Sequence record: MH359124
Source of the DNA: Escherichia phage SF
Length of the DNA stretch: 64,000 nucleotides
Direction: 5' to 3' (one strand)
Of this stretch, positions 4,301-27,127 are shown in pieces (the stretch's first letter is position 1; every line of letters begins with the position of its first letter). Below the pieces are notes generated by a model, which worked only from the letters and a program-made list of their open reading frames with translations, did no database searches and had not been told where the DNA came from. A program made the position numbers and the translations under genes.

Positions 4301-4470
4301 GTCCATCTATAGCTATTACGGGGAATTGCTTCCCCATTAGCTGTTTTGGTCTCAGCTATTTCCACAAAATAGTAGAAATTAGCGCCAACCTCATCCCAGC
4401 GAATTTGAACTTGGTTTGCGGACAATTTAGATAATCTGAGACTCGTGACTGCTGGCGCTTTTACTGTCAT
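1372..4470 (-). CDS. 7: baseplate wedge initiator gp7
   Basis: 1032 aa, same length as T4 gp7; synteny 6-7-8; stop overlaps gp8 start. Confidence 0.85.
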   Translation of the reverse strand: MTVKAPAVTSLRLSKLSANQVQIRWDEVGANFYYFVEIAETKTANGEAIPRNSYRWTNLGYTADNNFFESGLNSLTTYMMRVATAAEGFEQSDWRYTEEFETFEINAYTFQHMIEMQLANEFISEKFTKNNTNYVDFNNDTIMAALMSESFQFSPAYTDVSSIRNFIIGENQYHEIQGHIQDVCKDINRVYLMESEGILYLFERFQPIVKVSNDKGQTWKAVKLLNDRVGYPLSRTVYYQSEYTTYLLGYDKIFYGRKSSDIRWSANDVRFSSQDVTFAKIGDRLNLGFDVEIFGTYASLPGNVSRIAEAITCNDDYVYIAARDKVRFVKTSNAPIDSDPLSPTYSERLFEPETFTITGNPKAVCYKMDSVGGRIFALIIGEVENVNDDPRTKPILDSVDKGVYVLDHDAGTFKRIFGNTEEERRRIEPAFTNMSTDGVELYISSSNFKFLESDIVDDPETQSKYGLLEAVKYEYPREWLADKHYHMMIFASNEESNWETFSPTPMQYYAEPFFSYSRKSGTRSWINNSDRAVVIYSDLLYTKVVESHPSTSPDRKVHEYWNDGDCKIVMPNIEFTGFKKYASGMLFYKSSGEIISYYDFSYRVRDNVSIIWKPTNVFLTSSLQNQEKETSWVPVEETGLADPDLRPLLTTMMPESYLLDNTNFEAFCEAYIQYLSDGYGTHYNNLLNLIKNKYPREEHAWEYLWSEIYKRNIYLNAEKRDLVSRFFESRSYDFYSTKGTEASYKFLFKVLYNEDVEVEIESSAGTEYDIIIQSDSISEDLVGQTIYTATGRCNVTYLERSYSKGKLQWTVTIHNLLGRLLVGQEVKAERLADFEGEIVRGIKGKELAQNTIDYFNRGRAYYVMKIKSNLPSSRWKSDVLRFVHPVGFGFIAITLLTMFINTGLTLKHVETIINKYKNYKWDSGLPTEYADRVARLDPQGNVEFNPVTGEVIYDAGPYAGIEYPLPANYDEENDNSIFQGQLPSERRKPMSPLFDASGTTFSRFRELVNERLLDNVGNPRDPINPPQVKLDE

Positions 4471-15288: not shown

Positions 15289-15362
15289 GGCCCTGTAGCT
15301 CAACGGTTAGCAGCAGTCCCCTCATAAGGGAAAGGTTACCAGTTCGAATCTGGTCTGGGTCA
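15289..15362 (+). tRNA. tRNA with anticodon CAT (Met or lysidine-modified Ile)
   Basis: Hand fold: acceptor GGCCCTG/CTGGGTC (one mismatch, one GU), D-loop with GG, anticodon loop CTCATAA, T-arm ACCAG-TTCGAAT-CTGGT. Confidence 0.7.
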
Positions 15363-15368
15363 TATATT

Positions 15369-15445
<77 letters not shown>

Positions 15446-15463: not shown

Positions 15464-15808
15464 ATGAAAGGCAACATTTATCTGGTAGTTCATGATTTAA
15501 CGTTTTATTTTAACGAATATGATACAGTTATTTCTCATCGATTGATTAATTCGCTGTATCAGCATGCCGATTACATCTATGTTCAAAATGAATTTGGTCA
15601 TTGGAAGTTCATTAAAAATCGTTCTGGGTTAACTAGTTTTGAATACTTTGACCGTAAAGACCTTTTAAACGAAATCCCATTGCAACATCGGTTCCAGAAA
15701 CGTGAATCATTATATTATTGCCGCCATATACCAAACGCCGAATGTGTTAATGAAGCGATTAATCTATGGCGTCGGCGTCGAGAGCAAATTGATGATATGC
15801 CAAAATAA
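15464..15808 (+). CDS. hypothetical protein
   Basis: Start moved to ATG after GAGGAAAA (MKGNIYLVVHD); track ORF N-terminal extension overlaps tRNA-Arg. Confidence 0.55.
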   Translation: MKGNIYLVVHDLTFYFNEYDTVISHRLINSLYQHADYIYVQNEFGHWKFIKNRSGLTSFEYFDRKDLLNEIPLQHRFQKRESLYYCRHIPNAECVNEAINLWRRRREQIDDMPK

Positions 15809-15809
15809 G

Positions 15810-16120
15810 AAGCCGGGTCGCTACCGGTAAGTCGTCGGACTGATGTTCCCTGCGTAAGGACTGGTCTTAAATAAATCTTTATGATTTGTTAATATCCCCT
15901 TACATCACAGCAGAAACGGCGCACAGAATTATCGATTCGAGGAAATATCTTTGCCGTAAGCCGAGTAGCGTTTTTGACGGAACGTTCGGATATGGTCGAG
16001 ATATGGCCTTTTAAAAATATTGAGTAGCGTCAACTGCTTAATAACCGGGTTCGAATCCCGGCGTTTCGTACAAACACTTGCCTTAGCAGGTGGAACCCCG
16101 ACAAGGTTGCCGCAAGGCAT
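15810..16120 (+). ncRNA. tRNA-like structured small RNA region (possible rnaC/rnaD-type stable RNAs)
   Basis: No convincing protein ORF; canonical T-arm CCGGG-TTCGAAT-CCCGG at 16045-16061 with possible acceptor pairing CGGAACG/CGTTTCG; multiple hairpins; ends at strong terminator. Confidence 0.35.
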
Positions 16121-23466: not shown

Positions 23467-23699
23467 GTATAGCAATTTACATTAAATCAGAATCATGTGA
23501 TTCTTATCTGTACACATACGATAAAGATGTGTCAGAAGAAAAAATCAAAGACGACCTTAATATGGACCTTGATTTGTTCCGTCCTATTTCAGATTACAAA
23601 CTAGCATTCTCCGATAGCGAGCGTCCTGATAAAGAAACTCGCATTGAAGAATTTATGTCCGAATTAATGGCCAAATCATGGGACCGAGATGATGAGTAA
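23463..23699 (+). CDS. hypothetical protein
   Basis: ATGA overlap start MSIAIYIKSES; start could also be 23448. Confidence 0.5.
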   Translation: MSIAIYIKSESCDSYLYTYDKDVSEEKIKDDLNMDLDLFRPISDYKLAFSDSERPDKETRIEEFMSELMAKSWDRDDE

Positions 23700-24147
23700 G
23701 AAAAATAAAGTGAAAGAACTATCAGCCGGTATTATTTTCATGACAAAAGATAAAGAGTTATTCATGGGCCGTGTGACTGGTTCTCGTCCTAAAGGTTCTT
23801 TAACTCATCGGTGGGATATTCCTAAAGGCCGTGTCGAACCTGGCGAATCTCCTATTGAAGCCGCTATTCGTGAATGCGAAGAAGAAACTGGGTTTACACA
23901 ATATGACCCTGCCTTCCTGAAAGACCTAGGTGAACATCATTACTCAGACAATAAGAATATTCATCTGTTCCTATATACCATCCCTGTAGAGCACGAGCAA
24001 TTCAGAAACAGTGTTTGTAATTCCTATCATACATTCCCAGACGGACGACAGATTCCTGAATTTGATGCATTCGCTTTAATTAAACCTTCTCAATGGGAAT
24101 ATGTAATGGGCAAATCATTATATAAGGTGCTCACTACCCTCCTATAA
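23689..24147 (+). CDS. nudE: Nudix hydrolase (NudE-like)
   Basis: Nudix box GRVEPGESPIEAAIRECEEETGF; immediately upstream of lysozyme gene as T4 nudE (e.1). Confidence 0.85.
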   Translation: MMSKKNKVKELSAGIIFMTKDKELFMGRVTGSRPKGSLTHRWDIPKGRVEPGESPIEAAIRECEEETGFTQYDPAFLKDLGEHHYSDNKNIHLFLYTIPVEHEQFRNSVCNSYHTFPDGRQIPEFDAFALIKPSQWEYVMGKSLYKVLTTLL

Positions 24148-24155
24148 GTAATAAA

Positions 24156-24179
24156 TACCTCCTATAAACGTGGGAGGTA
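24156..24179 (+). promoter_or_regulatory. RBS-sequestering hairpin with late-promoter-like TATAAACG in loop, upstream of gene e
   Basis: TACCTCC-tataaacgtg-GGAGGTA; right arm is the lysozyme Shine-Dalgarno; mirrors T4 gene e early/late translational control. Confidence 0.5.
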
Positions 24180-24181
24180 TT

Positions 24182-24670
24182 ATGAATATATTTGAAATGC
24201 TTCGTAATGACGAAGGTCTTAGACTGACTTTATACAAAGACACTGAAGGCTTTTGGACGATTGGCATAGGCCATTTAGTAGCAAAGAACCCATCTTTAGC
24301 CGTAGCTAAAGCTGAACTTGACAGAATGATCGGACGTAAATGCGACGGTACAATTACCCTTGATGAGGCTGAAAAGCTATTTAATGAAGACGTTGATAAA
24401 GCTGTTCGCGGAATCTTGGGTAATGCTAAACTTAAACCGGTATATGATTCTTTAGATGCAGTTCGTCGATGTGCGTTGGTCAATATGGTCTTCCAAATGG
24501 GTGTAGCAGGCGTCGCTGGTTTTACTAATTCTCTTCGTATGCTTCAACAGAAACGTTGGGACGAAGCGGCAGTAAATCTAGCCCAATCTAAATGGTATCG
24601 TCAGACACCTAATCGCGCGAAACGCGTAATCTCAACATTTAAAACAGGAACTTGGAAAGCGTATATATGA
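24182..24670 (+). CDS. e: endolysin (T4 lysozyme, gene e)
   Basis: [32 protein letters not shown]...; near-identical to T4 lysozyme over full length (162 aa). Confidence 0.97.
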
Positions 24671-24948
24671 AAACATATAGTGAATTTTTATCAGAATCTA
24701 TTCTTAACGAAGCTACTGACACCTTTGCAACTAAGCTAGGTGCAGCTTTGGTTGAAGCCGAAAGTCTATTAGCACGTATTTCTGAACTTGCTAGTAAGAT
24801 AGATACTCGCAAATTTGAACGTACAAGCGATATCGTTAAGCTTGAAGCCTTGTTGCGTATGTGCGATAAACCGGAAGAAATCGCCAAGAACGGTTCGCTG
24901 ATGAAACAACGTCTTGAAAAATATATTTCAGGCGCTTCAGAAAAATAG
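24667..24948 (+). CDS. internal-protein-like protein ([13 protein letters not shown])
   Basis: ATG overlaps lysozyme stop (ATATGA); adjacent to e like T4 ipIII/ipII. Confidence 0.6.
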
Positions 24949-25004
24949 TGTTTACTTCCTCCAAGGGTTTTGATACTATACATTCATCAACTACTTGGAG
25001 GAAA
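24947..25004 (+). promoter_or_regulatory. early promoter (GTTTAC, TACTAT) with arms TTCCTCCAAG / CTTGGAGGAA pairing upstream region to the denV RBS
   Basis: gtGTTTACTTCCTCCAAGggttttgaTACTATacattcatcaactaCTTGGAGGAAattATG. Confidence 0.5.
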
Positions 25005-25006
25005 TT

Positions 25007-25420
25007 ATGACTCGTATCAATTTAACACTTGTTTCTGAACTGACCGACCAACATCTTATGGCTGAGTATCGTGAATTACCACGCGTATTTGGTGCAGTCC
25101 GTAAACATGTTCAAAACGGTAAACGTGTAAAGGATTTTAAAATCTCTCCAACATTTATCTTAGGCACAGGTCACGTAACATTCTTTTACGACAAACTCGA
25201 ATTTTTACGTTTACGTCAAATCGAGCTAATCGCTGAATGCTTGAAACGTGGTTTCAAAATCAAGGACACAACTGTCCAGGATATTTCCGACATCCCTGCC
25301 GAATTTCGTAATAATTATATCCCGACTGAAGCGTCCATTGCGATAAGTCAAGCACGCTTAGACGAAAAAATTGCCCAACGTCCTACTTGGTACAAATACT
25401 ATGGTAAATCAATTTACTAA
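25007..25420 (+). CDS. denV: endonuclease V, pyrimidine dimer DNA glycosylase (DenV)
   Basis: [35 protein letters not shown]...; matches T4 DenV (137 aa). Confidence 0.95.
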
Positions 25421-25511: not shown

Positions 25512-25814
25512 ATGAAAACATATCAAGAATTTATTACCGAAGCGCGAGTGAGTGCAGGTAAATTAGAAGCCGCTATAAATAAAAAGGCCCATTCATTTCA
25601 CGATTTGTCCGATAAAGACCGTAAGAAACTTGTAAGCCTTTATATTGACAAAGAGCGTATTCTCGCTCTTCCTGGCGCTAATGAAGGTAAACAGGCCAAG
25701 CCTTTGAATGCTGTCGAAAAGAAAATTGATAACTTTGCTTCTAAATTCGGTATGTCTATGGATGACCTTCAGCAAGCGGCTATCGAAGCAGCTAAAGTAA
25801 TTAAAGGTAAATAA
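25512..25814 (+). CDS. ipII: internal protein II-like (CTS MKTYQEFITEA)
   Basis: 100 aa; N-terminal CTS; resembles recalled T4 IPII; next to denV as in T4. Confidence 0.65.
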   Translation: MKTYQEFITEARVSAGKLEAAINKKAHSFHDLSDKDRKKLVSLYIDKERILALPGANEGKQAKPLNAVEKKIDNFASKFGMSMDDLQQAAIEAAKVIKGK

Positions 25815-25868
25815 CAGTTTACTTTCTCCTAGAATTGTGATAGTATATTCATAATTACTTGGAGAGGT
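25814..25868 (+). promoter_or_regulatory. PeSL-like early promoter (GTTTAC; TAGTAT) with CTCC/GGAG arms
   Basis: caGTTTACtttctcctagaattgtgaTAGTATattcataattacttGGAGAGG. Confidence 0.45.
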
Positions 25869-25986
25869 AAAATGACTCAATGAAAAAATTTTAATGAAGC
25901 CACACTGGTATAAGTATTAAGGCAAAAATATTTACATTCAAATAACATGGGAACAAGCTGGACCTCATGATTCTATGAGGGATTCC

Positions 25987-26085
25987 CGCCAACCTGTAAT
26001 AAGGTCGAGCCCAAGTGCGGTAATGGGTAATACAGAAATGGACAATTCGCGTGCCATGGAATGGCACAAACCTAGAGAGAACAAA
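25987..26085 (+). repeat. about 100 nt repeated leader element, copy A (upstream of CTS gene 26086)
   Basis: CCAACCTGTAATAAGGTCGAGCCCAAGTGCGGTAATGGGT...CGTGCCATGGAATGGCAC...AGAGAACAAAATG; second copy at 26485. Confidence 0.6.
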
Positions 26086-26415
26086 ATGAAAACATATCAA
26101 GAGTTTATCACTGAAGTTACATTATCTGCGGAACAGAAAGCTGCTATCGAAGAAGGTAAAAATCCCAAAGTAACATATAAAGTAAATAGTAAAGGCGTTT
26201 TTGATGGCTTGGTTCAAGACCCTGAATTGAAAAAAGCTCTTTCTAAAACTAATGCGTACTTTGCTCCTAAATTTAACACAGCCGGTGTACTTATTGGATT
26301 GGATGTATTCAACTCTAAAGGTGTTCTATCTAATGCCTTTGGTTATGCCGCTAACAAAATTACTAAAGCCGCATGGGAATCCAATACCAAACAAGCTCAA
26401 AAGCCTAGAGTATAA
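26086..26415 (+). CDS. internal-protein-like protein (CTS MKTYQEFITEV)
   Basis: Start at internal ATG; track N-terminal extension covers the repeated leader; 109 aa. Confidence 0.65.
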   Translation: MKTYQEFITEVTLSAEQKAAIEEGKNPKVTYKVNSKGVFDGLVQDPELKKALSKTNAYFAPKFNTAGVLIGLDVFNSKGVLSNAFGYAANKITKAAWESNTKQAQKPRV

Positions 26416-26484
26416 TTCTTGCCTAATAAAGGGAAACGCAACCTCTCCTTATGAACGTCGAGTCCTCTGAGTGATGTACCTTTT

Positions 26485-26587
26485 CCAACCTGTAATAAGG
26501 TCGAGCGCAATGCGGTAATGGGTTTACATAGCGAGTCGAAGGACATAACACGTGCCACGGAATGGCCCAACCTAAAAGAGAAACTAA
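26485..26587 (+). repeat. repeated leader element, copy B (upstream of gene 26588)
   Basis: CCAACCTGTAATAAGGTCGAGCGCAATGCGGTAATGGGT...CGTGCCACGGAATGGCCC...AAGAGAAACTAAATG. Confidence 0.6.
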
Positions 26588-27127
26588 ATGAGAACATTTT
26601 TAACTGGACCTTATCTATCCCTGATGAATGCTTTTACACACCATTCTGATGCTAGAGTAGAAGAAATTTGTAAGAATGGTTATATCCCGCCATTTGAAGA
26701 CGTACTCAAGCAGTACTGTACACTTCGTTTAGACGGCGGCAGACAATCAGGTAAATCAACTGCAGTAACTAATTTTGCGGCTAATTGGCTGCACGACGGT
26801 GGAACAGTTATTGTTCTTTCTAATACTTCAGCTTATGCTAAAATTTCTGCTGGCAACATTAAAAAAGAATTTTCTCGTTATTCTAGCGATGATATTCGAT
26901 TCCGTTTATTTACTGATTCTGTCCGTAGTTTTATTGGCAATGAAGGTTCTAAATTCCGTGGATTAACGCTTTCTCGTATTCTGTATATAATTGACGAGCC
27001 TATTAAAGCTCCTGATATGGATAAGATTTACAATGTCCATATTAAATCAGTACAGCACTGCTGCAAAAGCAAATATTGCATCAGCGGTACTGCTCGTCCT
27101 CAATTTTTTGTGATTGGACTGCAATGA
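26588..27127 (+). CDS. small P-loop NTPase
   Basis: Walker A GGRQSGKST and Walker B-like LYIIDEP; 179 aa. Confidence 0.6.
   Translation: MRTFLTGPYLSLMNAFTHHSDARVEEICKNGYIPPFEDVLKQYCTLRLDGGRQSGKSTAVTNFAANWLHDGGTVIVLSNTSAYAKISAGNIKKEFSRYSSDDIRFRLFTDSVRSFIGNEGSKFRGLTLSRILYIIDEPIKAPDMDKIYNVHIKSVQHCCKSKYCISGTARPQFFVIGLQ

What the first reader, a model, noticed from the sequence alone, without database searches (positions are those of the whole stretch)
25987..26587. A 100-nt leader element duplicated upstream of two adjacent genes
Two copies about 500 nt apart share CCAACCTGTAATAAGGTCGAGC(C/G)CAA(G)TGCGGTAATGGGT, then a hairpin CGTGCCA(T/C)GGAATGGC(A/C)C, and end at the start codons of the CTS gene (26086) and the P-loop gene (26588). 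This is not a PeSL and not a plain promoter. It could be a structured 5' UTR for translational control or RNA processing, or a recombination module.
Basis: seen in the sequence. Interest (0 to 1): 0.6.

Follow-up and report, generated by a model that had tools for sequence, protein, structure and literature searches.

The report
Widespread pseudoknotted phage RNA, duplicated
The repeated "leader" is real: it is two diverged copies of a conserved, pseudoknotted non-coding RNA of about 100-130 nt that occurs in phage T4 and over 1,000 other phage genomes from unrelated families, matches no catalogued RNA family, and has no known function.

Summary
Observation confirmed. The exact 22-mer occurs twice against 0 expected, and a covariance model finds exactly two hits in the window (E 1e-33 and 1e-15).

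The copies are two alleles of one RNA, not a recent duplication. Type A is the allele of T4, RB32 and HX01. Type B is the allele of many other T4-like phages.

The fold is P1, hairpin H1, P2 enclosing a near-invariant hairpin H2 plus an 18-nt strand J, and a pseudoknot. Compensatory changes support P1, P2 and the pseudoknot.

The same core lies:
- in rV5-like phages;
- inside tRNA arrays, including a Pseudomonas phage;
- in Kagunavirus Ivi, as a 194-nt terminator-promoter-RNA insertion.

There is no Rfam match, it is absent from complete E. coli genomes, and I found no paper describing it.

Best reading: an autonomous, horizontally spread non-coding RNA whose H2-J face binds a conserved partner. 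It is not a gene-specific translational operator. The mechanism is inferred. Rivals are a cis antiterminator or riboswitch, and a ribozyme.

HX01 lacks exactly the 502 nt between the two copies. The copies therefore also act as recombination breakpoints.

The parts
25817..25872 (+). PeSL-type T4 early promoter upstream of copy A: GTTTAC-N14-gtgaTAGTAT, flanked by the stem CTTTCTCC/GGAGAGG. It is the likely source of the transcript carrying both copies. It is not part of the element.
   Evidence: Read. The same promoter form is annotated in phage ASO78A. It is identical in HX01.
25949..26040 (+). Copy A, type A allele: the structured core from P1 to the tail.
   Evidence: CM hit 25947-26049, 64.6 bits, E 9.7e-16. 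Same allele as T4, RB32 and HX01.
25949..25987 (+). Copy A, P1 (GGGAA 25949-25953 with UUCCC 25983-25987), enclosing the internal loop CAAGCUGGA and hairpin H1 (CCUCAU 25963-25968, loop GAUUCU, AUGAGG 25975-25980).
   Evidence: P1 covaries: GGGAG/CUCCC in L027, and AAAGG/CCUUU in type B aligned onto it by the CM. H1 covaries: CCUUAU/AUAAGG in L200.
25989..26026 (+). Copy A conserved core. P2 (CCA 25989-25991 with UGG 24-26 of 260xx), H2 (ACCU-GUAAUA-AGGU, 25992-26005) and strand J (CGAGCCCAAGUGCGGUAA, 26006-26023).
   Evidence: The closing pair of P2 uses AU, UA, GC, CG and UG across 53 sequences. H2 and J are near-invariant across phage families.
26051..26085 (+). Copy A, T4-like-specific 3' extension: hairpin H4 (GUGCCA-UGGAA-UGGCAC, 26051-26067), then the purine-rich Shine-Dalgarno-like AGAGAG (26074-26079), ending before ATG 26086.
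   Evidence: H4 with an NGGAA loop is present in T4-like copies only.
26086..26415 (+). ORF with an MKTYQEF capsid-targeting-type N-terminus (109 aa, phrog_3966, function unknown). It is the gene bracketed by the two copies.
   Evidence: Absent from HX01 together with copy B.
26428..26534 (+). Copy B, type B allele: the structured core from P1 to the pseudoknot 3' strand.
   Evidence: CM hit 26426-26543, 129.5 bits, E 1.5e-33. Row 'windowB' of alignment A2.
26428..26483 (+). Copy B, P1 (AAAGG 26428-26432 with CCUUU 26479-26483), enclosing the pseudoknot 5' strand (CGC 26437-26439) and the long irregular hairpin H1 (26445-26476).
   Evidence: P1 pair 7-54 is GC, CG or AU. Pseudoknot columns 11-15 pair with 107-111.
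26484..26522 (+). Copy B conserved core. P2 (UCCA 26484-26487 with UGGG 26519-26522), H2 (26488-26501) and J (CGAGCGCAAUGCGGUAA, 26502-26518, one base shorter than in copy A).
26523..26534 (+). Copy B linker UUUACAUA and pseudoknot 3' strand (GCG 26531-26533).
   Evidence: In the pseudoknot helix, 4 of 5 pairs change on both sides. Column pair 13-109 uses CG, AU, UA and GC.
26554..26587 (+). Copy B, 3' extension: H4 (GCCA-CGGAA-UGGC, 26554-26566), the Shine-Dalgarno-like AAGAGAA (26576-26582) and an in-frame TAA (26585-26587) before ATG 26588.
26588..27127 (+). vs.8 homologue (179 aa, P-loop, phrog_1488). It is the first gene of the vs.8-vs.7-vs.6...regB early operon and the usual downstream neighbour of the element in T-even phages.

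Best explanation
SHOWN. Each copy encodes a compact pseudoknotted RNA, read on the + strand. Helix P1 closes a 5' domain holding hairpin H1. Helix P2 closes a second domain made of the near-invariant hairpin H2 (ACCU-GURRNA-AGGU) and the conserved strand J (GAGC-N4-6-(G)UGCGGUAA). A strand in the 5' domain pairs with the tail just after P2 to form a pseudoknot.

This RNA is an autonomous, horizontally spread module. It is found in T4-like phages including T4 itself, in rV5-like phages, in Kagunavirus Ivi, in a Pseudomonas phage and in uncultured phage contigs. Its neighbours vary: mRNA leaders, tRNA arrays, terminators, or its own promoter. The window carries two alleles, A and B, on either side of one gene. 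Recombination between them accounts for the gain or loss of that gene.

INFERRED. The RNA works as a folded domain in its own right. Its invariant H2-J face binds a partner shared by different gammaproteobacterial hosts, either a host protein or RNA-protein machine, or a widespread defence factor. It is either cut out as a stable small RNA, as neighbours in tRNA arrays are, or acts while still part of the early mRNA.

In T4-like phages a lineage-specific extension (H4 with a GGA loop, then the ribosome-binding site) merely joins the module to whichever gene follows.
For: Real and specific:
- Two copies against 0 expected.
- The CM finds only these two in 64 kb.

Structure, type B set (25 distinct sequences):
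- 93.9% of cells are paired against 83.9% in shuffles (0 of 500 reach the observed value).
- Covariation is 0.269 against 0.085 in shuffles, and at most 0.061 in the slid controls.
- In the pseudoknot, 4 of 5 pairs change on both sides. In P2, 3 of 4 do.

Structure, other sets:
- Across families (53 sequences): P1 5 of 5 and P2 3 of 4 pairs change on both sides; covariation 0.314 against 0.092.
- In the Ivi family: 98.4% paired; P1 pair 4-28 uses AU, CG, UA and UG.

Spread:
- 1,105 phage records match copy A. Its first 40 nt are 91-95% identical in rV5-like phages.
- T4 carries it directly after the denV stop codon.

Autonomy:
- L213: the element starts 16 nt after the last of four tRNAs and ends about 10 nt before a tRNA-like RNA.
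- PsgM04F: it lies inside a tRNA array.
- L008: the element and its tRNA-like neighbours are bracketed by the same repeated spacers.
- Ivi differs from element-less phiWAO78-1 by a 194-nt insertion of stop codons, terminator, promoter-like site and element.
- Tandem copies occur in L025 and L208.
- Downstream genes differ: vs.8, capsid-targeting-sequence genes and others.

Phage-only: no match in 5,426 complete E. coli genomes.

Recombination: HX01 lacks exactly the 502 nt between the copies.
Against: - No partner is identified and no experiment or transcript-end data were found. The trans-acting part is inference from context.
- In T4-like phages the element has no promoter or terminator of its own and always ends 15-40 nt before a start codon. 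That fits a cis role equally well.
- In L020 and the Ivi-like phages an intrinsic terminator follows, an arrangement typical of attenuators.
- The pseudoknot of type A, which includes copy A, is only 3 bp (CUG/CAG) and is not supported by covariation.
- The apparent invariance of H2 and J in my alignments is partly built in, because most loci were fished with patterns containing those bases. Only the BLAST hits are free of this bias.
- Single-sequence folding energies are not better than shuffles.
Confidence: 0.45

Rival explanations
1. Cis-acting regulatory leader. The folded RNA acts on its own transcript or transcription complex. It could be a processive antiterminator that binds RNA polymerase, as HK022 put RNA does, letting transcription run through terminators and untranslated tRNA arrays. 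Or it could be a riboswitch-like aptamer whose fold governs a downstream terminator or ribosome-binding site.
For: - The element always lies on the same strand as, and upstream of, what follows.
- It is promoter-proximal in rV5-like and Ivi-like phages (TTGATA about 45 nt before P1). In the window it lies about 95 nt after a PeSL early promoter.
- An intrinsic terminator follows directly in L020, L164 and the Ivi-like phages.
- It precedes a long operon in T-even phages.
- Tandem copies recall tandem riboswitches.
- Strong conservation across phages of related hosts would fit a polymerase-binding surface.
Against: - In rV5-like phages and Ivi the downstream gene has its own strong promoter after the element.
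- In L213, L142 and L020 it sits at the end of, or inside, tRNA arrays rather than before them.
- Downstream genes have no common function, which argues against a metabolite riboswitch.
- It is absent from bacterial genomes.
- The CM finds nothing in the HK022 put region. Put RNA is two stem-loops with a triplex and no such pseudoknot (PMC9378689).
- I found no convincing alternative pairing that would hide the ribosome-binding site.
Confidence: 0.27
2. Self-cleaving ribozyme or other RNA-processing element that cuts the polycistronic or tRNA-array transcript at a defined point.
For: - The topology is a nested double pseudoknot: P1-5', PK-5', hairpin, P1-3', hairpin domain, PK-3'. That is the same strand order as HDV-like ribozymes.
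- It has a small, highly conserved core.
- It occurs between cistrons and next to tRNAs, and in tandem. This resembles HDV-like theta ribozymes next to phage tRNAs (PMC10879173).
Against: - No match to any Rfam ribozyme family, even at E up to 10.
- The conserved bases lie in the domain equivalent to the dispensable P4 of HDV-like ribozymes.
- The P3-equivalent hairpin H1 is absent in Ivi-like copies.
- P1 does not start with the G-U wobble pair.
- Cleavage cannot be tested here.
Confidence: 0.13
3. No RNA function. The repeat would be a DNA-level recombination module or promoter, or part of N-terminally extended proteins, as in the T4 annotation of vs.8.
For: - An ATG at 25975 is in frame with the capsid-targeting-sequence ORF (146-aa ORF).
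- T4's annotated vs.8 (219 aa) starts at the same ATG inside the element.
- The copies do bound an indel.
Against: - Compensatory changes that keep pairing, G-U included, mark selection on RNA.
- Type B has an in-frame TAA at 26585-26587.
- Type A variants differ by a 1-nt indel inside the supposed coding stretch.
- The element also occurs in tRNA arrays where nothing is translated.
- No sigma-70-like or T4 late promoter consensus lies within it.
Confidence: 0.04

Closest known systems
T4 stable RNAs rnaC and rnaD (species 1 and 2 RNAs in the T4 tRNA cluster)
   Same: Both are phage-encoded small structured RNAs of unknown function, co-transcribed with tRNAs and released from tRNA arrays. In L213, PsgM04F, L008, L142 and L020 the element occupies this kind of position.
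   Different: No sequence or structure relationship: the CM gives no hit in the T4 rnaC/rnaD locus. In T4-like phages the element lies about 6-10 kb away, in an mRNA leader. The window has its own rnaD/rnaC homologues near 15808-16000.
HK022 put RNA (cis-acting antiterminator that binds RNA polymerase)
   Same: Both are phage-only, about 70-100 nt, have two helical domains, are promoter-proximal, are portable to any downstream genes, and have a terminator downstream in some cases.
   Different: There is no similarity. Put RNA is a V-shaped pair of stem-loops with a triplex (PMC9378689). This RNA has an H-type pseudoknot and a conserved single strand. No functional test was possible.
T4 gene 32 mRNA leader pseudoknot
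   Same: Both are pseudoknots in a T4-type mRNA leader upstream of the ribosome-binding site, and neither is in Rfam (PMC3014915, PMC10690425).
   Different: The gene 32 pseudoknot is tied to one gene and its autoregulating protein. This element is independent of the adjacent gene and crosses phage families.
PeSL (promoter-early stem-loop) cassettes of T4-type phages, and phage 'morons'
   Same: Both are short conserved non-coding modules that flank variable ORFs in hyperplastic regions and serve as recombination sites. Here an indel is bounded by the two copies, and in Ivi the element arrived as a terminator-promoter-RNA unit.
   Different: A PeSL is a promoter inside a stem-loop, and one lies separately at 25817-25872. 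This element has no promoter consensus, is selected as folded RNA, and the product of the 'moron' is an RNA rather than a protein.
HDV-like (including theta) self-cleaving ribozymes
   Same: Both have a nested double-pseudoknot strand order, and both occur next to phage tRNAs (PMC10879173).
   Different: The defining core features are not met; see the membership test.

Membership tests
Any Rfam 15 family (riboswitches, ribozymes, sRNAs, type III antitoxins, leaders) | A covariance-model match at or near the family's gathering score | tested here: not met
   Whole window at the gathering threshold: only 2 tRNAs. Region 25800-26700 at E up to 10: two chance-level hits outside the element. Seven loci from other phage families at E up to 1: nothing on the element.
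PeSL (promoter-early stem-loop) | A T4 early promoter (GTTTAC...TAnnnT) enclosed by an inverted repeat | tested here: not met
   No promoter-like site lies inside either copy. A true PeSL lies upstream at 25817-25872.
HK022-type put RNA | Sequence and structure similarity to putL/putR (two stem-loops, stem I triplex) | tested here: not met
   The CM finds no hit better than E=4 in the HK022 24-32 kb locus that should contain the immunity region; I did not locate put itself in it. The architecture described in PMC9378689 differs.
HK022-type put RNA | Makes RNA polymerase resistant to terminators, in cis | not testable with these tools
   Needs read-through assays.
HDV-like ribozyme | Nested double-pseudoknot strand order (P1-5', P2-5', P3 hairpin, P1-3', P4, P2-3') | tested here: met
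   The order P1-5', PK-5', H1, P1-3', (P2/H2/J), PK-3' is supported by covariation.
HDV-like ribozyme | An essential 3-bp P3 with L3 and P1.1; a G-U wobble at the first pair of P1; conservation concentrated in the L3 and J4/2 core | tested here: not met
   H1 is 6 bp or longer, or absent in Ivi-like copies. P1 starts with A-U or G-C. The invariant bases lie in the P4-equivalent domain.
HDV-like ribozyme | Self-cleavage at the 5' edge of P1 | not testable with these tools
   Needs an in vitro cleavage assay.
T4 rnaC/rnaD | Homology to the T4 species 1 or 2 RNAs | tested here: not met
   The CM search of the T4 locus containing rnaC, rnaD and the tRNAs gives no hit. The sequences read share no core.
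Metabolite riboswitch (generic) | A conserved aptamer upstream of functionally related genes, with an expression platform that competes with the aptamer | tested here: not met
   Downstream features are unrelated: vs.8, capsid-targeting-sequence genes, tRNA-like RNAs, promoters, terminators. By eye I found no conserved alternative pairing with the Shine-Dalgarno sequence or a terminator. Ligand binding was not tested.
Protein-coding N-terminal extension (T4 vs.8 as annotated) | A conserved open reading frame with a codon-like substitution pattern | tested here: not met
   In-frame TAA in type B. A 1-nt indel among type A copies. Paired compensatory substitutions.

The most novel reading that the evidence does not exclude
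This is a previously unrecognised class of functional phage RNA, present in T4 itself, with a specific molecular activity. Candidates are a new self-cleaving ribozyme, an RNA-polymerase-binding antiterminator unrelated to put RNA, or an RNA decoy that neutralises a host defence or RNA-targeting enzyme. It would have spread by horizontal transfer as an 'RNA moron' among unrelated virulent phages of gammaproteobacteria.
Probability: 0.3. Interest if true: 0.85.

Novelty: new variant of a known kind. Interest (0 to 1): 0.68.

Why it matters
T4 is the best-studied virulent phage. [quoted passage not shown] Here is a covariation-supported, pseudoknotted RNA directly after denV in T4. It is hidden under a probably wrong vs.8 start codon. 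Its core is shared with rV5-like, Kagunavirus and Pseudomonas phages.

A core conserved across such different genomes, carried as a self-contained cassette, implies a function that benefits the phage whatever the neighbouring genes are. Because T4 genetics is easy, deletion, pull-down and probing experiments are immediately feasible.

The finding also corrects gene annotation, namely the vs.8 N-terminus and spurious ORFs or a 'terminator' drawn over the element. It adds a concrete example of conserved non-coding modules serving as breakpoints for gene shuffling in the internal-protein hyperplastic region.

Tried and rejected
- **Single-sequence folding.** Energies were no better than shuffles. 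This is uninformative for a pseudoknot. I did not take it as evidence against structure.
- **Rfam at three levels.** Nothing on the element.
- **Scan of 185,579 bacterial and archaeal genomes with the core pattern.** 82 hits against roughly 50 expected by chance (my estimate). All were in unrelated, mostly GC-rich taxa and none in Enterobacterales. I discarded them as chance.
- **E. coli complete genomes.** No match, so it is neither host-derived nor a prophage element.
- **Second viral pattern scan.** Most new hits were chance matches in coding DNA. Only L142, L144, L148, L164 and L165 were real.
- **Metagenome scan.** About 9 of 40 loci were chance hits and were removed.
- **Resemblances seen by eye to host RNAs.** These were GCGGUAA with the 16S 530 loop; GUAACAAGGU with 16S around position 1500; the GUAAUA loop with the 23S 1095 loop; GUGCGGUAA with RNase P RNA; CUGUAA with the tRNA-Tyr anticodon loop; a lambda boxB-like shape of H2; and AAGUGC with ToxI. 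Matches of 8-10 bases against several kilobases of RNA are expected by chance (about 3 for an 8-mer against 16S), and the commonest variant breaks the 10-mer. I dropped them as evidence.
- **Homology to T4 rnaC/rnaD.** None.
- **put RNA.** None.
- **Joint transfer with the upstream lysozyme gene.** Ivi endolysin and T4 e share only 26% identity. Rejected.
- **Coding N-terminal extension.** Rejected; see the rivals.
- **H4 as a CsrA site.** The GGA sits in a hairpin loop, with further GGA motifs nearby. This is noted but untested and plays no part in the argument.
- **Literature.** Eight full-text searches and five papers read. None describes the element.

Full report
**1. The observation**

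The window is a T4-like phage. Its nearest records are Escherichia virus TH58 and Mosigvirus HX01.

Gene order around the finding:

| Feature | Coordinates |
|---|---|
| nudE | 23689-24147 |
| lysozyme e | 24170-24670 |
| internal head protein | 24667-24948 |
| denV | 24995-25420 |
| ipII-like internal protein | 25512-25814 |
| copy A | see section 2 |
| 109-aa ORF with an MKTYQEF capsid-targeting-type N-terminus | 26086-26415 |
| copy B | see section 2 |
| vs.8 | 26588-27127 |
| vs.7, vs.6 | downstream |

The 22-mer CCAACCTGTAATAAGGTCGAGC occurs exactly twice, with no further copy at up to three mismatches and 0.00 expected in shuffles. A covariance model built only from other phages' copies, run over the whole window without filters, finds 26426-26543 (E 1.5e-33) and 25947-26049 (E 9.7e-16) and nothing else better than E 0.55.

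**2. What the two copies are**

BLAST of copy A against 50,697 phage records hits 1,105 records, nearly all with one copy (1,135 places). TH58 has two.

In T-even phages the usual site is the leader of vs.8. In RB32 the order is Ip4, element, vs.8. In T4 the element starts directly after the denV stop codon.

Pattern scans of IMG/VR and of metagenomes, read, show two alleles in T4-like phages:
- Type A has a short hairpin H1 (CCUCAU-GAUUCU-AUGAGG), P1 as GGGAA/UUCCC, and the tail UAAAUACAGAAAUGGAC. It is the allele of T4, RB32 and HX01.
- Type B has a long irregular H1, P1 as AAAGG/CCUUU, and the tail UUUACAU followed by a variable strand.

The window has one of each. Copy A matches the HX01/T4 allele and copy B matches the allele of L034, L177 and L193. 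This is therefore not a recent tandem duplication. Two alleles of one locus have been brought side by side.

**3. Structure**

On 25 distinct type B sequences (alignment A2) I specified P1, H1, P2, H2 and a pseudoknot. The pseudoknot joins the 5' internal loop of P1 to the strand that follows P2 and the linker UUACAU. The counts were:
- 93.9% of cells paired, against 83.9% in shuffles (0 of 500 reach the observed value);
- covariation 0.269, against 0.085 in shuffles and at most 0.061 when partners are slid by 1-3 columns;
- in the pseudoknot, four of five pairs change on both sides, and one column pair uses CG, AU, UA and GC;
- in P2, three of four pairs change on both sides;
- in P1, one pair uses GC, CG and AU;
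- H1 and H2 do not vary within this set.

Further support:
- H1 of type A covaries in L200 (CCUUAU/AUAAGG).
- The model aligns P1 of type A onto P1 of type B.
- On the model-fitted alignment of 53 distinct sequences from all families, all five P1 pairs and three of four P2 pairs show double-sided changes. Covariation is 0.314 against 0.092. That alignment leans towards the model.
- Seven Ivi-like sequences fit the same plan at 98.4%. P1 pair 4-28 uses AU, CG, UA and UG.
- The pseudoknot partner sits in the P1 loop in that family (CUCCGG/CCGGAG, or UUCCGG/CCGGAA).
- It sits in the H1 apical loop in the L008/L213/PsgM04F family (CGGA/UCCG, CGGUU/AGCCG, CGGG/UCCG). I read these by eye.

Weak point: the pseudoknot of type A, which includes copy A, is only CUG/CAG.

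The part shared by all families is H2 (ACCU-GURRNA-AGGU) plus the strand GAGC-N4-6-(G)UGCGGUAA. That invariance is partly imposed by my search patterns. The independent evidence is the 91-97% identity of this 32-45-nt block in BLAST hits between otherwise unalignable phages.

**4. Context outside T4-like phages**

- **rV5-like phages (isim and several contigs).** The element is intergenic and is followed by two hairpins, a strong promoter, a small ORF and a tRNA array about 550 nt downstream.
- **L213.** It starts 16 nt after the last of four tRNAs and ends about 10 nt before a tRNA-like RNA.
- **Pseudomonas phage PsgM04F.** It lies inside a tRNA array, under spurious opposite-strand ORFs.
- **L008.** The element, a tRNA-like unit and four tRNAs form an RNA-gene block on the strand opposite to the flanking protein genes. 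The units are bracketed by repeated spacers (CCGUUGUG... / ...CACAACAGGU) that can pair around each unit.
- **L142 and L020.** A tRNA lies 175-300 nt upstream. In L020 an intrinsic terminator follows the element.
- **Kagunavirus Ivi and relatives.** The element follows the endolysin gene. Alignment with phiWAO78-1, which lacks the element, shows a clean 194-nt insertion of stop codons, an intrinsic terminator, a promoter-like TTGATA-17-GATTAA and the element. It uses a terminator that was already there.
- **L025 and L208.** These T4-like contigs carry two copies back to back.

The element is absent from 5,426 complete E. coli genomes. The bacterial-genome scan gave only chance-level hits.

**5. 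Interpretation**

Shown:
- This is a folded RNA under selection.
- It is a self-contained unit that moves between unrelated phages.
- It is not tied to any downstream gene.

Inferred:
- It works as a domain in its own right through the invariant H2-J face, which binds a partner common to enterobacterial and Pseudomonas hosts.
- It is probably released as a stable small RNA where it sits among tRNAs.
- In T4-like phages it rides in the early mRNA made from the PeSL promoter at 25817-25846. A lineage-specific extension (H4 with an NGGAA loop, then the ribosome-binding site) links it to the next gene.

I put 0.45 on this reading.

The main rival (0.27) is a cis-acting leader, either a put-like antiterminator or a riboswitch-like attenuator. 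Promoter proximity and following terminators favour it. Weighing against it are the promoters that follow the element in rV5-like phages and Ivi, its position at the end of tRNA arrays, the lack of a common downstream function, and the lack of similarity to put RNA (PMC9378689).

A self-cleaving ribozyme (0.13) is suggested by the HDV-like strand order and the tRNA neighbourhood (PMC10879173). The HDV-defining features are not met, and no Rfam ribozyme matches.

A purely DNA-level or coding explanation (0.04) is contradicted by the compensatory changes, an in-frame stop in type B and a frame-breaking indel among type A copies.

**6. Why two copies**

HX01 is colinear with the window through the ipII-like gene, the PeSL and the whole of copy A as far as AAAATGAAAACA. 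It then continues directly with TTTTTAACTGG of vs.8.

The window therefore has 502 extra bases, namely the ORF body plus copy B. The junction lies inside the ATGA(A/G)AACAT shared by the two start codons.

Elsewhere, type B copies precede capsid-targeting-sequence genes (L013, L015, L023). The conserved module thus also serves as a recombination breakpoint for cassette gain and loss in the internal-protein hyperplastic region.

**7. Comparison with known systems and novelty**

There is no Rfam family, and I found no paper describing it. Neither a large survey of phage structured RNAs (PMC10690425) nor the T4 post-transcriptional review (PMC3014915) names it in their main text.

It works most like the orphan stable RNAs of phage tRNA clusters (T4 rnaC and rnaD), but it is not related to them. 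It behaves in evolution like a moron or a PeSL-type cassette.

I rate it a new family within the known kind 'conserved structured phage non-coding RNA'. The function is open. Interest is 0.68.

Noticed in passing
L172 (T4 NC_000866) 4342-4441, minus strand; T4 record coordinates about 64841-64940: The reference T4 annotation starts vs.8 (219 aa) at an ATG inside hairpin H1 of the element. The original record X04567 lists alternative starts of 219 and 203 aa. Other phages start vs.8 about 100 nt downstream at ATGAGAACATTTTTAAC (179 aa here). The T4 N-terminus is probably mis-annotated.
   Followed up: partly
window 25975-26085: An ATG at 25975 is in frame with the capsid-targeting-sequence ORF, so a mechanical ORF of 146 aa reads through copy A. 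Gene callers may extend the gene over the RNA, as happened in T4.
   Followed up: partly
window 25817-25872: A PeSL-type early promoter (GTTTAC-N14-gtgaTAGTAT within the stem CTTTCTCC/GGAGAGG), followed by a mini-ORF ATGACTCAATGA. It is identical in HX01. In T4 the equivalent promoter precedes denV.
   Followed up: partly
window 15289-15442 and about 15808-16000: Two tRNA genes. About 370 nt downstream lie clear homologues of the T4 stable RNAs rnaD and rnaC (AGCCGGGTCGCTACCGGTAAGTCGTCGG..., ...TATCGATTCGAGGAAATATCTTTGCCGTAAGCCGAG...). An ORF lies between the tRNAs and these RNAs.
   Followed up: no
L025 8966-9085 and 9101-9196; L208 308-427 and 443-538: Two copies of the element in direct tandem, 15 nt apart, in a T4-like contig. 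The second copy is more diverged (core ...AAGGTCAGCCCGCGGCGGT...).
   Followed up: partly
L003 (phage Ivi) about 2361-2554, compared with L217 (phiWAO78-1): A 194-nt insertion carries stop codons, terminator, promoter-like site and the element. It also shortens a small unannotated ORF (MALQEFTNPV...) after the endolysin gene. The pre-existing downstream tail contains AUCACCUCCU, identical to the 3' end of 16S rRNA (an anti-Shine-Dalgarno-like sequence), before an intrinsic terminator.
   Followed up: partly
L215 (phage ASO78A) 675-702: The GenBank record annotates hairpin H1 of the type A element as a rho-independent terminator (WebGeSTer). The hairpin has no following U-run.
   Followed up: no
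L008 5230-5560, minus strand; also L010, L213 and L214: An array of RNA units is separated by repeated spacers (..UCCGUUGUGR.. and ..CACAACACACAACAGGU..). A tRNA-like unit with an 8-11-bp acceptor-like stem directly follows the element. ARAGORN does not call these units, and in L213 the unit scores 26.7 bits on the Rfam tRNA model.
   Followed up: partly
window 26051-26067 and 26554-26566; also 26039-26044 and 26539-26544: Hairpin H4 always presents NGGAA in its loop. A second (A/U)GGAC lies about 15 nt upstream, and many T4-like copies have GGA in the Shine-Dalgarno sequence. This resembles paired CsrA-binding sites. Not tested.
   Followed up: no
L002 (phage isim) 2678-3016: The ORF after the element in rV5-like phages (phrog_3330, no Pfam match) begins MADTTKKRRRRGRP. 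This is an arginine-rich N-terminus of the kind seen in lambda N-type RNA-binding antiterminators.
   Followed up: no
L020 12784-13079: A group I intron (Rfam RF00028, 54 bits) lies about 5 kb downstream of the element in an uncultured 96-kb phage contig.
   Followed up: no
L214 (PsgM04F) 1488-1806: Two annotated hypothetical proteins on the opposite strand lie over the element and the following structured RNA, inside a tRNA array. They are probably spurious.
   Followed up: no
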